From contig OZ336896.1 in NCBI GenBank assembly GCA_965287045.1, forward strand, positions 38,378,001 to 38,442,000: 64,000 nt of DNA, given 5' to 3'. The notes under the pieces are model-generated. The model saw only the letters and a list, made by a program, of their open reading frames with translations. It was not told the origin of the DNA and ran no database searches. This DNA comes from Carcharhinus amblyrhynchos. Its lineage: Eukaryota. This document shows positions 11,693 to 61,863 of this stretch, piece by piece; the first letter of the stretch is position 1; every line of letters starts with the position of its first letter. The translations under genes were made by a program, and so were the position numbers.

Positions 11693-14498
11693 CAAGCTAT
11701 AGCTTCCTTTCACGCAGCGACTGTTTCACATTGTATCTGAATTCAGCACGGAGCCCGGTCCTTGGGCCTTTTGGGGGGCTAATTTGGAGTATTTTTCAAA
11801 ACCAAGCTCTCAGTTGTGATTTAAGACATATTTACGTGGACGTCTTACGGTGCTCTATAATTTAAGGTGTATGACGACTTCCCCTATTGTTGTCCCATTA
11901 ACTAGGATGCTTATTTTCTGTATATTTAACACATTTCGGACAATCAAATTCCCCTTCGCTTGTTTAGCTCTGTAAGGACTTGCGATCTGCAGGTACTGCG
12001 TGTCGGGACTATGGGGAGTGAAATCTTAGGATATTACTCTCCAAGCCTCTGTGCTTCTCCGAAACATGGTGGCAACCGGCGACTGGAGCACGCCTGACTT
12101 TTCTGACTCTGTTCTATATTTACCAAAGCACCATTAGAAATAGAACCATTCATTTATATTGCTGTAAAATTCTAGCTTTATTAGCACGCTTAAACTCCGT
12201 TGCAATCTACAGCTTCCTTCAGTCCATTCGTAGCACCCGGCTGAAGGCGGGTCTTTTTTTTAGAATTTATTATGTTTACATAGGTAAATAAAACTTTGAA
12301 ACGCTTTCTCTCTGTTGCAATGGGTGGAAAGGGATTTCTCTATGCGGCTTTGAAAGCAAAGCTTGCAATTTCACTATGCATTTTATCTTCTAATTGTAGC
12401 CAATTAGAAACTCTGAACCTGCTTTAAAGAACAAAGATAATATCCGACAACCGGCTGTACCAACCCCGCGAAGTGCAAATAAGCAGAAACGTAAACTCCT
12501 GCATTATAAATTCCGATTTTATGTTTTAAAGAATGTCGAAGCAGGTAGCCCGTGTCGACTGAATCTCATTTTGTAACAGACCTATTCGATTTTTCCAGAA
12601 TTTTGTATTAATTTGAATGTATTGCTTGATTTTTAAATACATTTCCAACCTTTTACTTTATATTTTATACCAAATAAATTATATATAATCCTACGCAAAC
12701 GCGAGAGCGTAATAAAGATCCCATGAAGCAAAAATCGATCTTGCCAACATATTTTAATTCCGTCTTTCACAAATGGAGATGTTTAATATATTTTCAAGGC
12801 CAAATCGTCGATAGTTCACATTCCGCTGTTATAAACTGTAAAAAGCATTAGCGTCGTTATAAATGTTAAATCACATTTAGCATGGCGAGAGGTATTGCAC
12901 GCGATACAGACAAGCAAGCATTTGAATTGTGTTGCTTGCACTTATTCGAATAATTTTGCTTCACGTATCTTTAATCAATGTCAGATACCAAAACTGATAT
13001 TTCAAAATAACTAGCTTTTAGAGAGAGAGAGAGAAACCGTGCAAGCCTTAGGAAGAACTGGCTGGTTCTTGCACATAATTCGCCGATTTTCTGATGCGCT
13101 CTTTCTAATTCTGCCAAGCGCTTCGGGTCATTTAAAAAGTGTCAAACTGGAATTGTACTTGAAGCACAAACTCGAAAGTGATGTGCGAGTCTGGAGCAGA
13201 AATGAGAACTCTGTATATTCGAGCAGCGTGGGGTTTGTGTCGGGGATGTCTCGCGGTTTGAGCTGCTCCGGGAGTCCTTGGGCATTTTTCACCCAAAAAA
13301 AATCTTTGTTGGTCGGCTGGCCCTCATACATCAAATTATAGAGCACCTTCCAAGACAGTACCTATTATCCTTTTTGTTTCTTGGTTAAGAGAGAGGTTCA
13401 AATTCTGGTCATGGAGAACACAATCCCCTGTATCTTTGCCGATCCATCATGAATAGTTAAAGCTGTGGCGGGGAAGAGGAAAAGGGCCCTAAAATATCGC
13501 CGCAAGGCCAAGCATGAGCCGTCCAAAAACATATCTAGTTTGCATGGGCATGGACAGAAAAAGAAGGAGCAAAAGCACTTACTCCCTCGCCTTCACTATG
13601 GCACAGTAACACACTTTAAGCAGACACGTTAAATACATTTGTGTCCAATTTCAGAAAACAATTGTCCCAAATGGTTAAGAGACTCTAAGCGCTGTGTATA
13701 TAGAATGGGCATTGTTTCTCAGCGCTATCTCATTTTATGGGTTTTTCTTCTGTGCTTTTATCCCATGTTATCAGTGCTGCCTCTTAACAGCAAAGGAGTG
13801 AAGAGATATAAATTTTAGATTGCCGCGTTAAACAAGAAATTATGATGGCTATAAAAGTATGTTTCGGATTAGAGTTTGAATACATCGCTACTGAAACATC
13901 CATAAGTTTCCTTCTATTTAAACCAGATGTTTTCAGGCGAAATCTCACCCCGCCATGAACGCTGTACATTTACAAATGTTGATATTTTGGCAGCTCCGTT
14001 TTATAACAATAGCTGTAAACCTAATTTTAAGCGGTAGGTCAGATTTTTAATCTAGAATATTGACAGCATGACAATTAATCAAGTAAGGGGCAATGAAATG
14101 AAATGTAACGATGTTTTGTGTGTATTTTAACTGAACTGGATGTGAAAGTTTATGTAACTCCCTGCTAAGATAGCCAATCCCAGTTTGTCTGAAGTTTTTT
14201 TCATAAATAATTATCATTTTTGGAACATTGCCTAAACCAAAAGAATTTAGCTGTGAGCTAATGTTGAATCTGATCTCGATTAAAATAGTTTTGCAGTTGG
14301 CCATGTGAATTTTTTAGTTTTCTTCCAGGGCTCAGTGCAAGAGTCCCCTCCTCTGCAGTCCAAAATAGCCTGGAATCAAGACCAGCCGTGGCATCTGCTG
14401 TGCTTGTGTGGTGAACGCTATTCATGTCATTTGCTTTTGAGTATGTAAGATGGATCCACACACGTTCCACTATTATTCTGTGGTTCTTCTAACCTTAG

Positions 14499-14614
14499 GT
14501 CAACTGCCAGGAGGCTATTGGAAGAAAACGTCACGTGAATCGGGGTGCCAATGTTATTCGATAAGGGTGCAAGGACCCTGACAGTTTGTGAAATAAATAT
14601 TGGGAAACTGCGAG
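14499..14614 (+). other. HoxB3 5' UTR portion of the first coding exon
   Basis: Acceptor ttcttctaaccttAG at 14497-14498. Contains GTCACGTGA and the Hox3-type leader block GACCCTGACAGTTTGTGAAATAAATATTGGGAAAC just before the ATG. Confidence 0.7.
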
Positions 14615-15029
14615 ATGCAAAAAACGACGTACTACGACAACTGTACTCTATTCGGTGGATACACATACCAGGGAGCAAATGGTTTCAGCTATGAAGTGGC
14701 GCAGGAACCCTATCCACCATCTTCTCACGTTGAAAGTGATTACCAGAGGTCGGCCTGTTCCCTTCAGCCAGCTGGCACTAGTGCTCCGCATCCCAAATCT
14801 AAAGACATCAATGGGAGCTGCATGCGTTCGAATCTCCCCGAGCACCGCCAACCTCCACCTGTCTCACCTCCCCAAAATCCTAGCAACAACTCGACACAAC
14901 CAGGCACCAGCAAGTCTCTGCCCAAGTCTTCCCACACCTCCACACCCAGCCTCACCAAGCAGATATTCCCATGGATGAAAGAGTCACGGCAAAACTCCAA
15001 GCAAAAAAATAACAACTGTCCCACCACAG
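14615..15029 (+). CDS. HOXB3: HoxB3 coding exon 1 (MQKTTYYDN... with hexapeptide IFPWMK)
   Basis: ATG at 14615 gives the Hox3-type N-terminus [16 protein letters not shown] and the hexapeptide [18 protein letters not shown] phase-1 donor ACAG|GTACAC at 15029/15030 joins in frame to exon 2. Confidence 0.95.
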
Positions 15030-15872
15030 GTACACTAACTTTCTTTTTGCAGTTTTAGGGATTCAAGCATCAAATGAAAAGGCTGCAAGATTATTTAAGT
15101 CAAAACATTAAAAACACTATTTTCAAATTTCTGCAGCATGTAAAGCCTTTGTCTATACATCGTTAACACTTTGTTGGCCCATTGTTAACATTAAAACATA
15201 TTGTTCCCCCACCCTCCCACCCACCCCCACGTCTTCCAAATTCTCAAAGTTATTATTTTGCTTTGAAACTGAAACATGTTCTACCATGTAATTCAATAAA
15301 TGTGTTACACTATGCCACTGCTCCTAAACAGCCCAGAATGCACAAAGGTCACGTACTGGTTGATTGTGAAACCAGAAAGTTGACATGACATCAAAAAGTG
15401 AAGTAATAAAACGCAGGTAATACAAAAATTGCTACAACCTTATAAATACTAATGCTGCTTCCACTAATATAATTACTAATAACAACAATATTAACCATAT
15501 CGGTGTAGCAGTTCTTGATTCTAAGCATGATCTTGGATGGGTCATAATTATATAATACGACTGGTTACGTTGCAAAACATCATTTGGCCTGTCCTCTTTA
15601 AGTGTATCACTTCAACTGTGGAATATATTGTTCTAAACATTGTGTCAATATGATTATGATTCAATTTTCTGAGCTCCAGGGATCCCACGTCATATTTCTG
15701 GTGTTGGGGGTATAGAACTTTTAATAACGTTTATTGTGAAATGATAGGCCTTGATGTGTTAAAGGGAGAGCCTCTGTTTTTCTTTCAAGACTTATTAAAT
15801 TTATGTGGAGAATTTTCTTGTTCAGATCGGTGCACTTTTAAGAGGTAATTATCTTTATTTTATTGCTCACAG

Positions 15873-16642
15873 CTGAAAATGTCAGCGGGGACAAAAGCCC
15901 GCCGGGTTCTGCCTCAAAGCGAGCGCGCACTGCCTATACCAGCGCGCAGCTGGTGGAACTGGAGAAAGAATTCCATTTTAACCGTTACCTTTGCAGACCT
16001 CGCCGAGTGGAGATGGCGAACCTGCTTAACCTCAGTGAACGACAGATCAAGATCTGGTTTCAGAATCGCCGAATGAAGTACAAAAAGGATCAAAAAACGA
16101 AAGGCATGGTGAGCTCTTCCGGAGGACAATCGCCCACGGGAAGCCCTCCGCTTTCCGTCCAGCCCCCCACCGGATTTGTAAACGCCATGCATCCGCTTGC
16201 TAACAACTCTGCCTATGACGCCCCATCACCGCCGCCTTTCAATAAACCTCATCAGAACGCTTATGCTATGACCACAAGTTACCAAAACCCAATGAAAGGT
16301 TGCCCATCTCAGCAACAGAAAAGATACCCTGGGACAGCTCCAGAATACGACCCCCATGTACTACAGGGAAATGGCAACTACGGGACACCAAACTTGCAGG
16401 GTAGCCCTGTGTATGTTGGCGGGAACTATGTGGATTCTATGTCCGCTTCGGGGCCTTCCCTCTTTGGCCTCAATCATCTTTCTCACCCTCCATCCACAAA
16501 CATGGACTACAATGGTGCTGCTCAGATGGCTCCCAGTCAGCACCATGGACCTTGTGACCCACATCCAACCTACACAGACCTTTCATCGCATCATCCTTCT
16601 CAGGGAAGAATTCAAGAAGCTCCCAAGCTGACCCATCTGTAG
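15873..16642 (+). CDS. HOXB3: HoxB3 coding exon 2 (homeodomain and PG3 C-terminal domain)
   Basis: Acceptor ...ttgctcacAG at 15871-15872. Homeodomain [58 protein letters not shown]; LNLSERQ is B3-type (A3/D3 have LNLTERQ). Ends with the PG3 tail [13 protein letters not shown]. Spliced ORF is 1185 nt = 394 aa. Confidence 0.96.
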
Positions 16643-21218: not shown

Positions 21219-21310
21219 ATTGGGCAACGCCAATCATGTGACAACGAATTTGGTCCAATTTCAATCTGGTCCTCAGTTTAATAGAGTCTGTCCCCATACG
21301 CCTTGTAATA
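21219..21310 (+). promoter_or_regulatory. HoxB2 proximal promoter with three CCAAT boxes
   Basis: ATTGG at 21219-21223, CCAAT at 21230-21234 and 21255-21259, CATGTGAC between them, then the Hox2-type leader block tttaatag...gtccccatacg. Confidence 0.65.
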
Positions 21311-23542: not shown

Positions 23543-26500
23543 ACGACTTAATTCTTTAATGAAACCTCACAGTCTGTGTTTGAAGGTGACTGCTAGTGTG
23601 TTTTTTTTCGAGATATATGCACCAAGAATTAAAGCATAAATAGCTTACGCAGAAAATATTCGCTGTATGTTGACAAAAAAAGTAACTCACTCTTGATTAA
23701 AAAAGGAAATCATAATATTTTTAATCTAAGAGAAATGTGCCTACCCTGGATATTTGTATTGGTTTTGTTGGATCTACAATGATAAAAGGGCAGGAGTTAT
23801 TTATCCTAGTTGTTGTGCCATTCCATCGTTTTAAGCAACAAACAGGATACATAACCAAGTGTTCTAACATCGTTTGGAACTATTGCCTCCGTAATGTTCT
23901 TTGTCAAGGGTATAATGTATATGTTTTTGTATATGGCTCGCTTTATGCTTGAATGTGGCTCAGTGAAATGGGTAGATCAAATGTGTATTGAAAACGATTT
24001 GGAGAGTTAATGCCATTTCTGCCTGTGTTGAACCTCCTTTCCCCGCCCCCATTCGTTCCTGTATCAGAGTGATCAACTATTATTCAACTGACGTTCCATC
24101 TAGTGCTGAATTGAAGCGTCCAGTTCCCTGATTCCGTCAATTTCTGGGGGGTGGGGGCGAACAATAAATCTTCTGATATTATTGTATGTGTAATTCCATA
24201 GAACACTACTTGAAGAATTAATATAAAAAGTGTCTGGAAGTGGTTAAAGTAGATATCTCCAACGTGGAGCAAAGAGTATTAAAGGCTTGATGGGCAGATT
24301 GCTCAACATGCATTGAGATTTATTTTATTCTATATGATGTCCATTTTCAATTTATTCTAATGGGTTTTAGGTATCATAGGACCTAAAACAGCTGACCGAA
24401 ATGTGGAAAACATGAAGTTTATTATAAATACGGAAGCCCTGTGGGGGAGGGGCGGAGGAGTTCAATGTTCCCATCCATTCAAACGAACCCGCTTCTTTCC
24501 ACTAACCATTACTGAATGAAATGATTTAACAACTATCCGATAGTGTGCTTTTCTTGTGAAATTTAATCCCGTTGAGTTAGTGCAATGCGATGTTTCAAAT
24601 GTCTGGCGTTGTATATCTTTTCTCTTACAGTTTTTTCCCCCTCCATGTTACATAGGGTCGTCACAATGTCGCAATGCTGGCTGGTTATCCTTCATATCAA
24701 GCATCATTTTTTTGTTTTGTGGGGGTGGGGTGAAGGAAGAGAGATCTGGCGGGTGGTTTAACAGCCGGATACCCTTCCTGCCGCGAACCTTCCCAATTCC
24801 GCTGGCTTTCCTGCATCAGTGGCTGGGTCTCTCGAATTGTTTGTAATCAGTGCAAGTACCACGTTTCTCATATTTAATAGCATCGCGATAAAATGAATGG
24901 TGAGATAGATCGACAGAGTAAGATAGTGAGGAAATTAAAACGTAACATCTGGAGAGGCAGAAATTAAAATTTTACACATTGGAGCCAGATGTGCAGCTCA
25001 GACAACAAAAGAGGCAGCGGCTAAAATAATTGGGTAAGGCAGGAGAAACTGCCCGACAAAGAGGGGGTGCGAGCAGGAAAGCTTCGCGCAACTGGCCAGA
25101 AAATAACTAACAACATCGATCATCAGTCCATTTTTTTATTCGCAATTGTGCTCCCTCCCCCACCCCACCCCGCGCTCTGCCAAGGGAGGTTTATTTACAA
25201 GATGTAATTTTTTTTGCTTAAACTCATACATCAAGCTGCTTTATGAATGAGGGGGTCATCTTGAGAAATCAATCGCAGTGACATAAAAATAAATCATATT
25301 ACGCATTTGCCTAGTCACGGGTGTTTCCCAAGAAAGGCAGAAATTTGGTAGGGCCTTTGGAAACGCTCCACAGAAAATGCTGCAAATGTCCAGAATCACC
25401 AGGCCCGCCTTACTAGCTTCAAAATGGCGCCGTGTGGTCTGACACACAAAACATTCTTACCACTTGCTAATATTCTGCAGTATTTTAACTCTGCATATTG
25501 CATTCTTTGTTGAATGGTATTTTAAAATCTCAAGTTTTGTTTCGTAATGATTTCAAAATACCTTGAAACACCTACTAAATAAGATCATGTTTTAATTTTT
25601 CAGCTTCCCCCCCCTTGTCCCTCATTTCTTTATTTTATCTTTTCTTACTCTTCATATTTTAGGCACTGTTCCAATTGTAATAACTGCACCTCCTTTTCAA
25701 AGCTTCTTGTAGCACAGACTGCATATAACTCTTGTTAATCGATGGGTTTCAATACAATATTCAACAGAAAATGCATATCACACAATAAAACATTCATGTT
25801 TAATGACTGGAGGCGGGCAACGTTAATGCTGTTTCTTTAGCAAGCTTCATATTTTTCATTATCTGAATAGAAGAATCGTGAGGGACAGCAAAACAAACAT
25901 AAAGCTGCAGAGGCGGAGAAAACGGGAGGGGGCGGGGGGAGAACCAATAAATGGTTTAAAAGGCGCATTGAGAAAGGTACAAAAAGTAAAAGAAAGTTTG
26001 AGATCAGAACGTGCGGGGTAACTATAGATACAGAGGAATATACAGAAATAAACATGTAAATAAGCAGAGTCAGACACAGGGGTGAGGACAAGCAGAGACA
26101 TGTTAACAGGGACGAAGAAAGAGAGTTACATTGCCTATTAAATGATTCTAAAAACGAATTTGAAAATTGACTCCCTTGGTCAGAGGAATCCTGCACATGT
26201 GTTTAATGCAGTCTGAGGGCGTGGACTCCATTCTAAGGAATTATAAGATTTAACCTTGTCATAGAGTTATGTGCGCTGCTTTATTCCAATATAAATGCAT
26301 GACAGTTTAATTGAGTAGAAACTCCTTCAACTTACATGTGCAAACCTTGACGTGGTATCAATACAAATCTCTAACGAGCGCCTCTTTACATAGCATAATG
26401 ACCAGTAAAACTTGCTGCACGTCCAGGGAACATGCCAGTGACAATTACAAATCAATTCTACGCCCACAGAACAACCTTAATAAATGGGAACTAACCACTC

Positions 26501-31117: not shown

Positions 31118-31141
31118 CATTGGTAACTCGGGGTCACGTGA
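31118..31141 (+). promoter_or_regulatory. HoxB1 core promoter: inverted CCAAT plus E-box
   Basis: CCATTGG at ~31118-31124 and GGTCACGTGA at 31132-31141, between the ARE and the ATG. Confidence 0.6.
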
Positions 31142-31266
31142 ATGTCTTCTTGACTGATATCGTTTGATTGCCAGCGAGCCATGGAGGAAGTTGACTGGGT
31201 GACATAGTGCTTGGGGTTTCAGGGGCAGGGAGAATCCCGAACAGGTTGACCGTCCATCACTGGCAG

Positions 31267-49710: not shown

Positions 49711-49925
49711 CAGTGTGGAGCAGAAGCACTGGCACAACTAGTTGAATCAAATAGTTAAAGAGTTGCAATTTCTATGTCATTCTGTGCAATTTTGTGTTCC
49801 ACATACACAAACATTCTTTGGAACTTGTTTTCAAGTTTTCATTGGTTACCACACAATAAGGATGATAATCCAGAAATTAAACTATTTTTATCAATACATT
49901 TGAAGGTATGAAATGATAAATTATC

Positions 49926-50961
49926 ACCAGTGGAGTGCCCCAGGGGTCGGTGCTGGGGCCTCAGCTTTTTACCATTTATATAGATGATCTGGAGGAGGGA
50001 ACCGAGTGTATGGTGTCGAAATTTGCTGATGACACCAAGGTTGGGGGAACGGCAAATTGTGCGGAGGGTGTGGAGAGTCTGCAGAAGGATCTAGATAGGC
50101 TGGGCGAATGGGCCAGGAAATGGCAAATGGAATTTAATGTTGGCAAGTGTGAGGTGGTCCACTTTGGTAGGAATAATGGTAGGAAGGACTATTACTTACG
50201 GGGCGAAAAACTGCAGCAGGTGACGGTGCAGAGGGACCTCGGGGTCCTTGTGCATGCGTCGCAAAAACCCAGCTTGCAGGTGCAGCAGGTGGTCAGGAAG
50301 GCGAATGGGATGCTGGCCTTCATAGCAAGGGGGATTGAATATAAAAGTAGGGAGGTCTTGCTGCAGCTGTATAGGGCATTGGTGAGGCCGCAGCTGGAGT
50401 ACTGTGTGCAGTTTTGGGCGCCGCACCTGCGCAAGATATTTTGGCCTTGGAGGGAGTGCAGAGGAGGTTTACTAGGCTGATACCGGAGTTGAGGGGGTTG
50501 AGCTATGAGGAGAGGCTGAATAAACTAGGCTTGTACTCGTTAGAGTTTAGAAGAATGAGGGGAGATCTCATTGAGACATATAAGATGATGAATGGGATGG
50601 ATAGGATAGAGGTGGAGAGACTCTTCCCGCTCAAAAAAGACAGTAGGACTAGGGGGCACAGCCTCAAGATAAAGGGGGGGGGGGGCGGTTTAGAACGGAG
50701 TTGAGGAGGAACTTCTTCACTCAAAGGGTGGTGAATCTCTGGAATTCTCTGCCCGTTGAAGTGGTGGAGGCTGCCTCGCTAAATATTTTTAAGACGCGGG
50801 TTGATGGGTTTTTGATAAGAGAGGGGATTAAGGGTTATGGGGAGAGGGCGGGAAGGTGGAACTGAGCCACGACAGATCAGCCATGATCTTATTGAATGGC
50901 GGGGCAGGCTCGAAGGGCTAGATGGCCTACTCCTGCTCCTATTTCTTATGTTCTTATGTTC
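49926..50961 (+). mobile_element. Young CR1 LINE, 5'-truncated and frameshifted (RT C-terminal half)
   Basis: PQGSVLGP and KFADDTK motifs. Frameshifts near 50435 and at an expanded G run (~50674-50686). (TTCTTATG)n tail. Confidence 0.92.
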
Positions 50962-53511: not shown

Positions 53512-55682
53512 GTTGACTGGGGGAGCACGTTGGAAGGTAGGTCTGCTGATGAGCAGTGGAGGATCTTTAAGGAGATCTTTCTTGGTGCTCAGCAGAAATT
53601 TATTCCGATGGTTAAAAAGGACCGTAGGAGGAGAGGTAATAAGCCGTGGATCACGAAGGAGGTGAAGGAAAGTTTTAAATTAAAAGCGGAGGCGTTTAGA
53701 GTAGCTAAGAGTAGTGGGCGAGAAGAGGATTGGGAGAGGTTTAAATGTCAACAAAGATTGACAAAGAAGTTGATAAAGAAGGGTAGGAGAAACTATGAAG
53801 CTGGGCTAGCGCTTAATATAAAAAAGGATAGCAAGAGTTTTTAAAAATATATAAAAAGGAAGAGGCTGGCTAGGGTGAACGTTGGACCCTTAGAGGATGA
53901 GAGGGGGGACTTAGTGGTAGGGGATGGGGAAATGGCTGAGGTCTTGAATAACTTTTTTGTTTCGGTCTTCACGGAGGAAGACGTGAATAATTTGCCGGGT
54001 GTTAGCGATGGAAAGGTGGTAGGACTGGAGGGTCTCGATGACATTATTGTTACTAGAGAGGCGGTGCTCGACAGACTGGAGGGACTGATTGTGGACAAGT
54101 CCCCAGGACCGGATGGAATGCATCCGAGGGTTCTGAAAGAAATGGCGGAGGTGATAGTGGATGCCTTGGTGGTTATTTTCCAAACGTCGCTGGATTCCGG
54201 GGTAGTGCCGGAAGACTGGAAAAAGGCTAATGTTACGCCGTTGTTTAAGAAGGGTGCCAGGCAAAAGGCAGGGAATTATAGGCCGGTTAGTTTAACGTCT
54301 GTTGTAGGTAAAATGTTAGAATCCGTCATCAAGGAGGAAATAGCGAAGCATCTTGAGGGGAATTGCTTGATAGAGCAGACGCAGCATGGTTTCGTTAAGG
54401 GGAAGTCGTGTCTGACAAATTTATTGGAGTTCTATGAGGATGTGTCTAGGGCGGTGGATAGAGGAGAGCAGGTGGATGTGGTCTTTCTCGATTTTCAGAA
54501 GGCGTTTGACAAGGTACCTCACAAGAGGTTATTGCAGAAGGTAAGGGGGCATGGAGTTGGGGGTAGGGTGTTAGCGTGGATAGAGGATTGGTTGTCAAAT
54601 AGGAGGCAGAGAGTGGGGGTTAATGGGTGCTATTCGGATTGGCGGTTGGTGACTAGTGGAGTGCCCCAGGGGCCGGTGCTGGGGCCTCAGCTATTTACCA
54701 TTTATATAGATGATCTGGAGGAGGGAACCGAGTGTAAGGTGTTGAAATTTGCTGATGACACCAAGATTGGTGGAACGGCAAATTGTGCGGAGGGTGTGGA
54801 GAGTCTGCAGAAGGATCTAGATAGGCTGGGCGAATGGGCCAGGAAATGGCAAATGGAATTTAATGTTGGCAAGTGCGAGGTGGTCCACTTTGGTAGGAAT
54901 AATGGTAGGAAGGACTATTACTTACGTGGCGAAAAACTGCAGCAGGCGACGGTGCAGAGGGACCTCGGGGTCCTTGTGCATGAGTCGCAAAAGCCCAGCC
55001 TGCAGGTGCAGCAGGTGGTCAGGAAGGCCAATGAGATGCTGGCCTTCATAGCAAGGGGGATTGAATATAAAAGTAGGGAGGTCTTGCTGCAGCTGTATAG
55101 GGCATTGGTGAGGCCGCAGCTGGAGTACTGTGTGCAGTTTTGGTCGCTGTACTTACGCAAGGATATTTTGGCCTTGGAGGGAGTGCAGAGGAGGTTTACT
55201 AGGCTGATACCGGAGTTGAGGGGGTTGAGCTATGAGGAGAGGCTGAATAAACTAGGCTTGTACTCGTTAGAGTTTAGAAGAATGAGGGGAGATCTCATTG
55301 AGGCGTATAAGATGATGAATGGGATGGATAGGATAGAGGTGGAGAGGCTCTTCCCGCTCAGAAAGGACAGTAGGACTAGGGGGCACAGCCTCAAGATAAA
55401 GGGGGGGCGGTTTAGAACGGAGTTGAGGAGGAACTTCTTCACTCAAAGTGTGGTGAATCTCTGGAATTCTCTGCCCGTTGAAGTGGTGGAGGCTGCCTCG
55501 CTAAATATTTTTAAGACGCTGGTTGATGGGTTTTTGATAAGCGAGGGGATTAAGGGTTATGGGGAGAGGGCGGGAATGTGGAACTGAGACATAACAGATC
55601 AGCCATGATCTTATTGAATGGCGGGGCAGGCTCGAAGGGCTGGATGGCCTACTCCTGCTCCTATTTCTTATGTTCTTATGTT
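53512..55682 (+). mobile_element. Young CR1 LINE, 5'-truncated ORF2 with complete RT domain
   Basis: KSPGPDG, NYRPVSLTS, QHGF, LDFQKAFD, PQG and FADD motifs. A single in-frame TAA at 53842-53844 separates the two tracked ORFs. No endonuclease domain. (TTCTTATG)n tail. Confidence 0.95.
53875..55587 (+). CDS. CR1 ORF2 reverse transcriptase remnant (570-codon open frame, non-ATG start)
   Basis: RT motifs as above. Part of a truncated LINE, so probably not a functional gene. Confidence 0.7.
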   Translation: MNVGPLEDERGDLVVGDGEMAEVLNNFFVSVFTEEDVNNLPGVSDGKVVGLEGLDDIIVTREAVLDRLEGLIVDKSPGPDGMHPRVLKEMAEVIVDALVVIFQTSLDSGVVPEDWKKANVTPLFKKGARQKAGNYRPVSLTSVVGKMLESVIKEEIAKHLEGNCLIEQTQHGFVKGKSCLTNLLEFYEDVSRAVDRGEQVDVVFLDFQKAFDKVPHKRLLQKVRGHGVGGRVLAWIEDWLSNRRQRVGVNGCYSDWRLVTSGVPQGPVLGPQLFTIYIDDLEEGTECKVLKFADDTKIGGTANCAEGVESLQKDLDRLGEWARKWQMEFNVGKCEVVHFGRNNGRKDYYLRGEKLQQATVQRDLGVLVHESQKPSLQVQQVVRKANEMLAFIARGIEYKSREVLLQLYRALVRPQLEYCVQFWSLYLRKDILALEGVQRRFTRLIPELRGLSYEERLNKLGLYSLEFRRMRGDLIEAYKMMNGMDRIEVERLFPLRKDSRTRGHSLKIKGGRFRTELRRNFFTQSVVNLWNSLPVEVVEAASLNIFKTLVDGFLISEGIKGYGERAGMWN

Positions 55683-60214: not shown

Positions 60215-61743
60215 AAGAACATAAGAACAAAAGAAATAGGAGCAGGAGTAGGCCATCTAGCCCTTCGAGCCTGCCCCGCCATTCAATAAGATCATGGCTG
60301 ATCTGTCGTGGCTCAGTTCCACATTCCCGCCCTCTCCCCATAACCCTTAATCCCCTCGTTTATCAAAAACCCATCAACCTGCGTCTTAAAAATATTTAGC
60401 GAGGTAGCCTCCACCACTTCAACGGGCAGAGAATTCCAGAGATTCACCACCCTTTGAGTGAAGAAGTTCCTCCTCAACACCGTTCTAAACTGCCCCCCCT
60501 TTATCTTGAGGCTGTGCCCCCTAGTCCTACTGTCCTTTCTGAGCGGGAAGAGTCTCTCCACCTCTATCCTATCCATCCCATTCATCATCTTATATGTCTC
60601 AATGAGATCTCCCCTCATTCTTCTAAACTCTAACGAGTACAAGCCTAGTTTATTCAGCCTCTCCTTATAGCTCAACTCCCTCAACTCCGGTATCAGCCTG
60701 GTAAACCTCCTCTGCACTCCCTCCAAGGCCAAAATATCCTTGCGTAAGTGCGGCGACCAAAACTGCACACAGTACTCCAGCTGCGGCCTCACCAATGCCC
60801 TATACAGCTGCAGCAAGACCTCCCTACTTTTATATTCAATCCCCCTCGCTATGAACGCCAGCATCCCATTAGCCTTCCTGACCACCTGCTGCACCTGCAG
60901 GCTGGGTTTTTGCGACTCATGTACAAGGACCCCGAGGTCCCTCTGCACCGTCGCCTGCTGCAGTTTTTCGCCACGTAAGTAATAGTCCTTCCTACCATTA
61001 TTCCTACCAAAGTGGACCACCTCGCACTTGCCAACATTAAATTCCATTTGCCATTTCCTGGCCCATTCGCCCAGCCTATCTAGATCCTTCTGCAGATTCT
61101 CCACACCCTCCGCGCAATTTGCCGTTCCACCAATCTTGGTGTCATCAGCAAATTTCGACACCATACACTCGGTTCCCTCCTCCAGATCATCTATATAAAT
61201 GGTAAATAGCTGAGGCCCCAGCACCGACCCCTGGGGCACTCCACTAGTCACCAACCGCCAATCCGAATAGCACCCATTAACCCCCACTCTCTGCCTCCTA
61301 TTTGACAACCAATCCTCCATCCACGCTAACACCCTACCCCCAACTCCATGCCCCCTTACCTTCTGCAATAACCTCTTGTGAGGTACCTTGTCAAACGCCT
61401 TCTGAAAATCAAGAAAGACCACATCCACCGGCTCTCCTCTATCCACCGCCCTAGACACATCCTCATAGAACTCCAATAAATTTGTCAGACACGACTTCCC
61501 CTTAACGAAACCGTGCTGCGTCTGCTCTATCAAGCAATTCCCCTCAAGATGCCTCGCTATTTCCTCCTTGATGATGGATTCTAACATTTTACCTACAACA
61601 GGCGTTAAACTAACCGGCCTATAATTCCCTGCCTTTTGCCTGGCACCCTTCTTAAACAACGGCGTAACATTAGCCTTTTTCCAATCTTCCGGCACTTCCC
61701 CGGAATCCAGCGACGTTTGGAAAATAACCACCAAGGCATCCAC
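60215..61743 (-). mobile_element. Young CR1 LINE, 5'-truncated, open RT frame (60313-61743), 6-bp TSD
   Basis: 476-codon open frame nearly identical to the 53.9-55.6 kb copy. (CATAAGAA)n tail. TCTTAT at 60209-60214 and 61744-61749. Confidence 0.95.
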
Positions 61744-61863
61744 TCTTATGAAGAAAGGTTGGACAGACTGGGACTGTATCCATTGGAGTTTAGAAGATTG
61801 ACGTGATTTTCTTGAAATAAATCAGTTCCAAGGGGGCGTGACTGGATAGATGCTGAAATGATG

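What the first reader, a model, noticed from the sequence alone, without database searches (positions are those of the whole stretch)
14551..14694. Out-of-frame overlapping uORF in HoxB3 that looks homologous to the in-frame N-terminal extension of HOXD3
Seen: an ATG at 14551, 64 nt before the main ATG and so out of frame, opens a 47-codon ORF ([47 protein letters not shown]). It runs past the HoxB3 start and stops at 14692-14694. Its context is weak (ccaATGt). Recalled knowledge: human HOXD3 begins MLFEQGQQALELPECT-MQKAAYY, an MLF.. start in frame upstream of the MQK start. Inference: one ancestral upstream AUG became an N-terminal extension in D3 but a repressive overlapping uORF in B3. HoxB3 output would then depend on leaky scanning and start-codon stringency, a paralogue-specific translational switch.
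Basis: partly seen in the sequence, partly recalled or inferred. Interest (0 to 1): 0.72.

Follow-up and report, generated by a model that had tools for sequence, protein, structure and literature searches.

The report
Ancient upstream start codon in Hox3
A weak extra start codon just upstream of a shark's HoxB3 body-patterning gene is the same ancient codon found in its sister genes: it is out of frame in HoxA3 and HoxB3, where it likely dampens protein output, and in frame in HoxD3, where it likely adds 16 amino acids.

Summary
In detail: ATG 14551, 64 nt before the HoxB3 start, opens a 47-codon overlapping ORF, inside the spliced mRNA in 4 of 4 runs laid. Homology to the HoxD3 start is shown in this shark genome: HoxD3 has the same ATG at -48, in frame; HoxA3 has it at -64, out of frame. 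So it is not B3-specific; D3 is the odd one. The ATG is kept in 7 of 7 DNA leaders, with a pyrimidine at -3 in all; all 5 A3/B3 copies keep the frame. The human HOXA3 counterpart is already a replicated Ribo-seq uoORF (c7riboseqorf27); no HOXB3 counterpart is listed. No peptide-level constraint. Main rival: the ATG lies in a CCAAT box of an E-box/CCAAT promoter module, but that box is broken in 3 of 7 leaders that keep the ATG. Repression, stringency response, mammalian B3 status and evolutionary direction are untested. New member of a known kind; the link across paralogues was not found in print. The scan had not noted it before.

The parts
14551..14694 (+). Upstream overlapping ORF, 47 codons, weak-context ATG 64 nt before the HoxB3 start; overlaps the first 80 nt of the CDS
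   Evidence: homologues
14615..15029 (+). HoxB3 coding part of the first coding exon (MQKTTYYDN...), main ATG with G at -3
   Evidence: best hits are shark Hox-B3; donor after 15029
14499..14614 (+). Exonic leader, 116 nt from the splice acceptor to the main ATG; the candidate acceptor of shark HoxA3 is also at -116
14517..14552 (.). Promoter-type module: reverse CCAAT (14517-14521), 10 nt, E-box CACGTG (14532-14537), 10 nt, forward CCAAT (14548-14552), whose last two bases are the AT of the upstream ATG
   Evidence: sequence; E-box kept in 7 of 7 leaders, forward CCAAT in 4 of 7, reverse in 4 of 7
11560..11593 (+). 3' end of the upstream non-coding exon that splices to 14499; holds a 10-codon uORF (11560-11592) whose stop abuts the donor
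14447..14455 (+). Conserved AAGATGGAT motif (ATG at 14450) in the intron before the acceptor; kept in 5 of 5 A3/B3 leaders, but its frame drifts; absent from spliced mRNA
15873..16642 (+). HoxB3 second coding exon (homeobox to stop)
   Evidence: loose end matches its start

Best explanation
The ATG at 14551 is an ancient weak-context upstream start codon shared by the Hox group-3 paralogues, and in spliced HoxB3 and HoxA3 mRNAs it likely diverts a fraction of scanning ribosomes into an overlapping dead-end frame, which would lower Hox3 protein output. Shown: position, frame, homology, presence in spliced transcripts, conservation, and a Ribo-seq catalogue entry for the human HOXA3 copy. Inferred: ribosomes that start here pass the main ATG out of frame and cannot reinitiate at it, so HoxB3 and HoxA3 protein comes from ribosomes that leak past the weak codon. 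The stop lies 335 nt before the last exon junction, so it could also trigger nonsense-mediated decay (50-55 nt rule, established knowledge). In HoxD3 a net 16-nt difference puts the same codon in frame, so either start gives a HoxD3 protein, long or short. What is selected is the codon, its weak context and its frame, not the peptide. The same bases probably also serve as an E-box/CCAAT proximal promoter, whose own transcripts would likely start downstream of the codon and escape it.
For: Homology in one genome: A3 at -64, B3 at -64, D3 at -48 with a 16-nt gap; 56 of 64 nt identical between A3 and B3. In mRNA: 4 of 4 runs (at most 4 studies; RNA status is a guess, but the contigs are spliced) join 11593 to 14499; 3 of 4 also show the exon-2 joint. 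Sample picked on the CDS start only: 4 of 5 metagenome matches are vertebrate Hox3 contigs (the fifth, a chance match, was dropped), and all 4 keep the ATG. With the 3 shark genes: ATG 7 of 7, pyrimidine at -3 7 of 7, purine at -3 of the main ATG 7 of 7, A3/B3 distances 64, 64, 64, 64, 67, all 1 mod 3. The -67 leader matches shark B3 at only 26 of 61 nt yet keeps ATG and frame; protein P0196 implies the same -67 state (read by eye). Forward CCAAT is broken in 3 of 7 leaders with the ATG kept, and no sampled leader keeps CCAAT while losing the G. The annotated mouse Hoxd3 leader has no E-box, while human HOXD3 has the conserved poor context UCAAUGU. Profile search: 9 of 11 hits are Hox3 overlap frames, all with Met 21 codons before the junction (P0197 counted by eye). 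Human HOXA3 uoORF c7riboseqorf27, 47 aa, is in the GENCODE Ribo-seq catalogue under a name reserved for replicated ORFs. D3 extension: 5 of 5 cartilaginous-fish and 16 of 17 lobe-finned/tetrapod proteins; 143 of 145 non-D3 group-3 proteins start at MQK and none at MLF. Internal control: the equally conserved intronic ATG near -165/-170 falls in frames 0, 2, 2, 0, 0.
Against: No reporter or ribosome data for any HoxB3. The human catalogue lists no HOXB3 uoORF among 8 HOXB rows, and mammalian B3 leaders could not be read. Ivanov et al. examined all 39 mouse Hox leaders and did not list Hoxa3 or Hoxb3 among the 13 with conserved uORFs; their CAGE table was unreadable, so the major start may lie downstream of the codon. 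The E-box is as invariant as the ATG (7 of 7), spacing fits the NF-Y/USF 10-12 bp preference, and the mouse Hoxa3 region has E-box-dependent promoter activity. The Hoxa9 promoter CCAAT also reads CCAATG. The CCAAT breaks come from few independent events, and changes in the A-run leave an ATG more easily than other changes would. The profile hits are biased towards frame-preserving copies. In ray-finned fish only 2 of 25 D3 proteins are annotated with the extension, and leader L006 has a stop at codon 13, so the D3 state is not universal; annotation starts are also the annotators' choice (P0212 versus P0213).
Confidence: 0.6

Rival explanations
1. The ATG is a by-product of a conserved NF-Y/USF-type proximal promoter (reverse CCAAT, E-box, CCAATG). 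It is translated at a low level when distal transcripts include the region, but this has no selected role.
For: Module with 10-nt spacings on both sides of the E-box. Similar modules precede HoxB1, HoxB2, HoxA2 and HoxD1 in this genome. Mouse Hoxa3 E-box mutation lowers promoter activity and bHLH factors bind there; a later preprint calls the region a native promoter. Conservation of the 64 nt is at nucleotide level with no indels in most lineages.
Against: ATG kept where CCAAT is broken (3 of 7) and, in mouse D3, where the annotated leader has no E-box. Spacing from E-box to ATG varies (13, 14; 17 from a mouse Hoxa3 primer) while ATG-to-ATG spacing stays at 64 or shifts by 3. Replicated Ribo-seq call in human HOXA3.
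Confidence: 0.25
2. The codon was the original in-frame start of Hox3 (the D3 state). The A/B lineage gained 16 nt, and the out-of-frame ATG is a tolerated relic frozen by constraints on neighbouring sequence.
For: No HoxC3 in this genome (3 matches only) and no lamprey leader, so direction is open. The differing segment holds a short direct repeat 14 nt apart that fits either duplication or deletion. If A and B are sister clusters (recalled), their shared state is one event.
Against: A purely harmful out-of-frame AUG should be lost over this span, yet it is kept in a teleost-like B3 leader whose surroundings have diverged to 26 of 61 identity.
Confidence: 0.1
3. The overlapping ORF encodes a functional or ribosome-stalling peptide.
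For: Peptides look alike across paralogues (73% shark B3/A3; 21 of 42 to the mammal-like copy); the length is 45-47 codons in shark B3, shark A3, L004 and human A3.
Against: Variable sites by codon position are 6/9/9 against 3/3/12 in the CDS control. Only 1 of 6 changed codons between shark A3 and B3 is synonymous. Length ranges 45-95 codons. PhyloCSF is negative and there are 0 MS studies for the human A3 copy. Likeness in the second half is forced by the overlapping CDS.
Confidence: 0.05

Closest known systems
Conserved weak-context inhibitory Hox uORFs (Ivanov et al. 2022, PMC8892498; Hoxa1, a9, a11 tested)
   Same: Upstream AUG in conserved poor context in a Hox leader, kept from fish to amniotes; predicted sensitivity to eIF1/eIF5. 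HOXD3 is in their conserved poor-context start list (UCAAUGU).
   Different: Hoxa3 and Hoxb3 are not among their 13 genes. The three uORFs they tested are 7-21 codons long; this one overlaps the CDS, which rules out reinitiation. They do not link the HOXD3 start to an A3/B3 uAUG in the text I read (parts 1-4 of 9, section 12, term searches; SI PDF unreadable).
Human HOXA3 uoORF c7riboseqorf27 (GENCODE Ribo-seq catalogue, row in Sandmann et al. 2023, PMC10032668, Table S1)
   Same: The paralogous ORF itself: same start position (21 codons before the junction), same frame, 47 codons.
   Different: A catalogue row only, labelled conserved, with no function or deep history given. No HOXB3 or HOXD3 counterpart is listed.
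Mouse Hoxa3 TIE uORF from uAUG111 (Alghoul et al. 2021, PMC8172242)
   Same: An inhibitory uORF that overlaps the Hoxa3 CDS; a 1-nt deletion fuses it to the reporter, which means the same frame class as the -64 codon.
   Different: Starts further upstream at a strong-context AUG. It is probably the counterpart of the intronic ATG at 14450 (inference; figures not seen), which is spliced out of the transcripts seen here. The -64 codon is not discussed in the sections read (7, 11, passages).
E-box/CCAAT promoters of Hoxa genes (Akirtava et al. 2022, PMC9456764) and the NF-Y/USF composite (Dolfini et al. 2016, PMC4889920)
   Same: CACGTG with CCAAT boxes 10 nt away; the mouse Hoxa3 E-box tested there is the counterpart of 14532-14537 (primer rows).
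   Different: In Hoxa9 the module lies upstream of the transcription start. In Hox3 it also lies inside a spliced exon of distal transcripts, so its ATG reaches the mRNA.

Membership tests
Conserved weak-context inhibitory Hox uORF (Ivanov type) | AUG lies within the mRNA leader | tested here: met
   Spliced contigs in 4 of 4 runs include it; transcription starts were not mapped
Conserved weak-context inhibitory Hox uORF (Ivanov type) | Suboptimal context, conserved | tested here: met
   Pyrimidine at -3 in 7 of 7 leaders; G at +4 in 1 of 7
Conserved weak-context inhibitory Hox uORF (Ivanov type) | Present in at least 90% of placental mammals | not testable with these tools
   No mammalian HoxB3 leader could be read; the mouse row is cut at 400 characters
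Conserved weak-context inhibitory Hox uORF (Ivanov type) | Translated (ribosome profiling) | tested here: inconclusive
   Listed as replicated for human HOXA3; not listed for HOXB3; no shark data
Conserved weak-context inhibitory Hox uORF (Ivanov type) | Represses the main ORF and responds to eIF1/eIF5 | not testable with these tools
   Needs reporters
Conserved-peptide uORF | Codon-level purifying selection and conserved length | tested here: not met
   6/9/9 against 3/3/12; lengths 45-95; PhyloCSF negative
NF-Y/USF E-box-CCAAT composite promoter | CACGTG 10-12 bp from CCAAT | tested here: met
   10 nt on both sides in shark B3
NF-Y/USF E-box-CCAAT composite promoter | Intact CCAAT conserved across orthologues and paralogues | tested here: inconclusive
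   Forward box intact in 4 of 7, reverse in 4 of 7, E-box in 7 of 7
NF-Y/USF E-box-CCAAT composite promoter | Factor binding and promoter activity | not testable with these tools
   Reported for the mouse Hoxa3 E-box
ATF4-type two-uORF delayed reinitiation | One short first uORF followed by an overlapping uORF, both conserved | tested here: inconclusive
   A 10-codon uORF precedes it in B3, with the ATG also in mouse, but shark A3 has GTG there and three more ATGs lie upstream if the exon is contiguous
uAUG strengthened by a downstream hairpin | Conserved stable stem about 14 nt after the AUG | tested here: not met
   5-bp stem at +14 in the three shark genes, only -7.6 kcal/mol; across 7 leaders the covariation term is +0.51 and it is broken in 3

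The most novel reading that the evidence does not exclude
One AUG older than the A/B/D split works as a three-state switch among Hox3 paralogues: overlapping repressor in A3/B3, N-terminal extension in D3, and short contained uORF in some teleost D3. A fall in start-codon stringency would then cut HoxA3/B3 protein while sparing HoxD3 and shifting it to the long form, and a proximal promoter built on the same bases would make transcripts that bypass the brake. This would explain the hyperconservation of the contested Hoxa3 'IRES' and give a translational basis for dosage differences among interchangeable group-3 proteins.
Probability: 0.3. Interest if true: 0.72.

Novelty: new member of a known kind. 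Interest (0 to 1): 0.52.

Why it matters
Why Hox 5' leaders are so conserved (IRES, promoter or uORF) is an open dispute, and the Hoxa3 leader is one of the contested cases. This codon sits in that region, is kept from sharks to human HOXA3, and was not among the published conserved Hox uORFs. One base change (CCAATG to CCAATC) separates the promoter role from the start-codon role, which makes the dispute directly testable. The same codon in two frames in sister genes is a natural experiment on how a start codon moves between repression and protein extension. Group-3 Hox proteins are reported to be interchangeable and dose-dependent (recalled: Greer et al. 2000, not read here), so a paralogue-biased brake on translation would matter for patterning.

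Tried and rejected
Peptide function: rejected. Downstream hairpin: seen in the three shark genes, not supported across 7 leaders. ATF4-like two-uORF model: left as a lead only. HoxC3 as outgroup: 3 group-3 loci only, in two searches; P0202 is best matched by A3 proteins (19 of 23). Mouse Hoxb3 leader: motif searches gave no hit in that row, but cells are cut at 400 characters, so this is uninformative. The run search listed no holder on record as RNA; the laid runs are contigs, so starts, strand and levels cannot be read. Reads were laid only on 14100-15200, so the transcript's 5' end and further upstream exons remain unmapped. Viral-contig scan: 0 matches. Metagenome match L008 and profile hits P0205 and P0207 are unrelated and were dropped. 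Unreadable or not held: Ivanov SI PDF (CAGE Table S1 and uORF Table S2, which may bear on why Hoxa3/b3 were not listed), supplement of the expanded Ribo-seq catalogue (may list a HOXB3 uoORF), two papers asked for by id, Alghoul and Koch figures (Koch Figs EV2B and 4F mark uAUGs on the Hoxa3 element). Ten literature searches listed no paper that, by title and abstract or by the passages I read, links the A3/B3 uAUG to the HOXD3 start; most subscription papers are not in the library.

Full report
Observation. The window holds a shark HoxB3-B2-B1 stretch. The ATG at 14551 is 64 nt before the MQK start at 14615, opens 47 codons and stops at 14694, with C at -3 and T at +4. One upstream ATG in 116 nt is ordinary by itself (about 2.1 expected), so the case rests on homology, transcript structure and conservation.

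Homology within the genome. A search with the first coding exon finds three group-3 genes, and so does a search with the group-3 C-terminal family. HoxA3 has the same ATG at -64, out of frame, opening 45 codons. HoxD3 has it at -48, in frame, giving MLFDKGVKTLSFRNSE before MQK. The alignment is unambiguous around the ATG and shows a net 16-nt gap in D3; A3 and B3 match at 56 of 64 nt.

In the mRNA. Contigs from 4 of 4 runs laid (at most 4 studies; RNA status guessed by the tool) enter the locus at 14497-14499 with a loose end that maps to an exon ending at 11593. Three of the four also show the joint to the homeobox exon, and one run holds an unspliced contig too. The ATG is therefore in spliced transcripts, 52 nt after the acceptor. 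Contigs cannot show transcription starts or levels.

Conservation. A pattern for the CDS start alone gave 5 metagenome matches. Four are vertebrate Hox3 contigs (labelled by protein likeness as teleost-like A3, bird-like B3, teleost-like B3 and teleost-like D3); one was chance and was dropped. With the three shark genes, the ATG is present in 7 of 7, is the only ATG in the exonic leader, and has a pyrimidine at -3 in 7 of 7. A3/B3 distances are 64, 64, 64, 64 and 67. Both D3 leaders have 48, but L006 has a stop at codon 13, which makes a contained 12-codon uORF. A profile of the two shark peptides found 11 proteins; 9 are Hox3 overlap frames (8 A3-like, 1 newt B3), all with Met at the -64 position, though this sample favours frame-preserving copies. 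Among D3 proteins the extension is annotated in 5 of 5 cartilaginous fishes, 16 of 17 lobe-finned fishes and tetrapods (15 with 16 codons, one with 17) and 2 of 25 ray-finned fishes; unnamed proteins were placed by likeness. Of 145 other group-3 proteins 143 start at MQK and none at MLF.

Translation. The human HOXA3 counterpart is c7riboseqorf27, a 47-aa uoORF in the GENCODE Ribo-seq catalogue (Sandmann et al. 2023, Table S1 row); that name class marks replicated calls (PMC13010147 passage). The same table has 8 HOXB rows and none is the B3 counterpart. Human HOXD3 is on Ivanov's list of conserved poor-context starts (UCAAUGU), and Hoxa3 and Hoxb3 are not among their 13 uORF genes.

Not the peptide. 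Variable sites by codon position are 6/9/9 in the uORF against 3/3/12 in the CDS for the same pair of leaders, and lengths run from 45 to 95 codons. PhyloCSF of the human copy is negative. A 5-bp stem at +14 seen in the shark genes is weak and has no covariation support.

The promoter rival. The AT of the codon ends a CCAAT box 10 nt after an E-box, with a reverse CCAAT 10 nt before it, which fits the 10-12 bp NF-Y/USF spacing (Dolfini et al., passages). Similar modules precede HoxB1, B2, A2 and D1. The mouse Hoxa3 E-box supports promoter activity (Akirtava et al., passages and supplement rows); Koch et al. also saw promoter-like activity but dispute its meaning (section 10). This role is probably real. 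It does not fully explain the ATG: the forward box is broken in both D3 leaders and in the teleost-like B3 leader while the ATG stays, in segments only 22 of 45 and 26 of 61 identical to the shark. These are few independent events, so the rival keeps about a quarter of the odds.

Mechanism. Shown: anatomy, homology, inclusion in spliced RNA, conservation, and a catalogue entry for human A3. Inferred from the scanning model: some ribosomes start at the weak codon, pass the main ATG out of frame and cannot reinitiate; the rest leak through to a main ATG with a purine at -3. Output of A3 and B3 would rise with start-codon stringency. In D3 both starts are productive. The stop lies 335 nt before the last junction and could feed nonsense-mediated decay. 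Proximal transcripts would likely bypass the codon, which may be why a CAGE-based survey missed it; I could not read that table. Direction of change is open without HoxC3 or lamprey.

Relation to known work. It works like Ivanov's weak-context Hox uORFs; two membership features were met, one was inconclusive and two could not be tested. Alghoul et al. described a mouse Hoxa3 uORF overlapping the CDS in the same frame class from a stronger AUG further upstream (sections 7 and 11), probably the counterpart of the intronic ATG at 14450 (inference). Ten searches showed no paper that links these codons across paralogues, within a library that lacks most subscription papers. The scan's own notes hold no earlier record of it.

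Verdict. A real, deeply conserved feature. It is a new member of a known kind with an apparently unreported cross-paralogue twist; function is untested for B3. Interest 0.52.

Noticed in passing
window 11560-11593 (+): A 10-codon uORF with A at -3 ends at a TAA that abuts the splice donor of the upstream HoxB3 exon. The mouse Hoxb3 leader has an ATG at the same place (its stop lies beyond the readable part, and human protein P0193 is compatible with one). Shark HoxA3 has GTG there with the same stop and donor.
   Followed up: partly
window 31181-31207 (+): An 8-codon uORF 86 nt before the HoxB1 start begins MEEV, as does the human HOXA1 uORF c7riboseqorf24; likely a paralogue of the tested Hoxa1 uORF. 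HoxB1 is not on Ivanov's list.
   Followed up: no
window about 31120-31140 and 21219-21260; L018; L019: A reverse-CCAAT plus E-box(-like) module precedes HoxB1, HoxB2, HoxA2 and HoxD1 as it does Hox3.
   Followed up: partly
window 359-485, 7454-7547, 7682-7764, 10502-10573, 11126-11167, about 11.4-11.7 kb, 13318-13373: Non-coding blocks shared between the HoxB3 and HoxA3 upstream regions at 78-90% identity; two short ones also match HoxD3.
   Followed up: no
L006 (teleost-like HoxD3 leader): The homologous ATG is in frame at -48 but meets a stop at codon 13, a third state (contained uORF), while two other fish D3 proteins keep the open 16-codon extension.
   Followed up: partly
L019, HoxD1 leader: An in-frame ATG 72 nt before the MNSYLEY start would add 24 residues to shark HoxD1.
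   Followed up: no
proteins P0332, P0334, P0337: Three catfish HoxB2a proteins carry a 19-residue extension that starts MLF; shark HoxB2 has no such ATG, so probably unrelated.
   Followed up: partly
window 25197-25427 (-): Rfam match to HOTAIRM1 conserved region 2 (46 bits, cut-off 37) between HoxB2 and HoxB1; the family is named from the HOXA cluster.
   Followed up: no
window 49920-50477, 53845-55584, 60316-61821: Long open frames that look like reverse-transcriptase fragments of LINE-type repeats, downstream of the cluster (label by eye).
   Followed up: no
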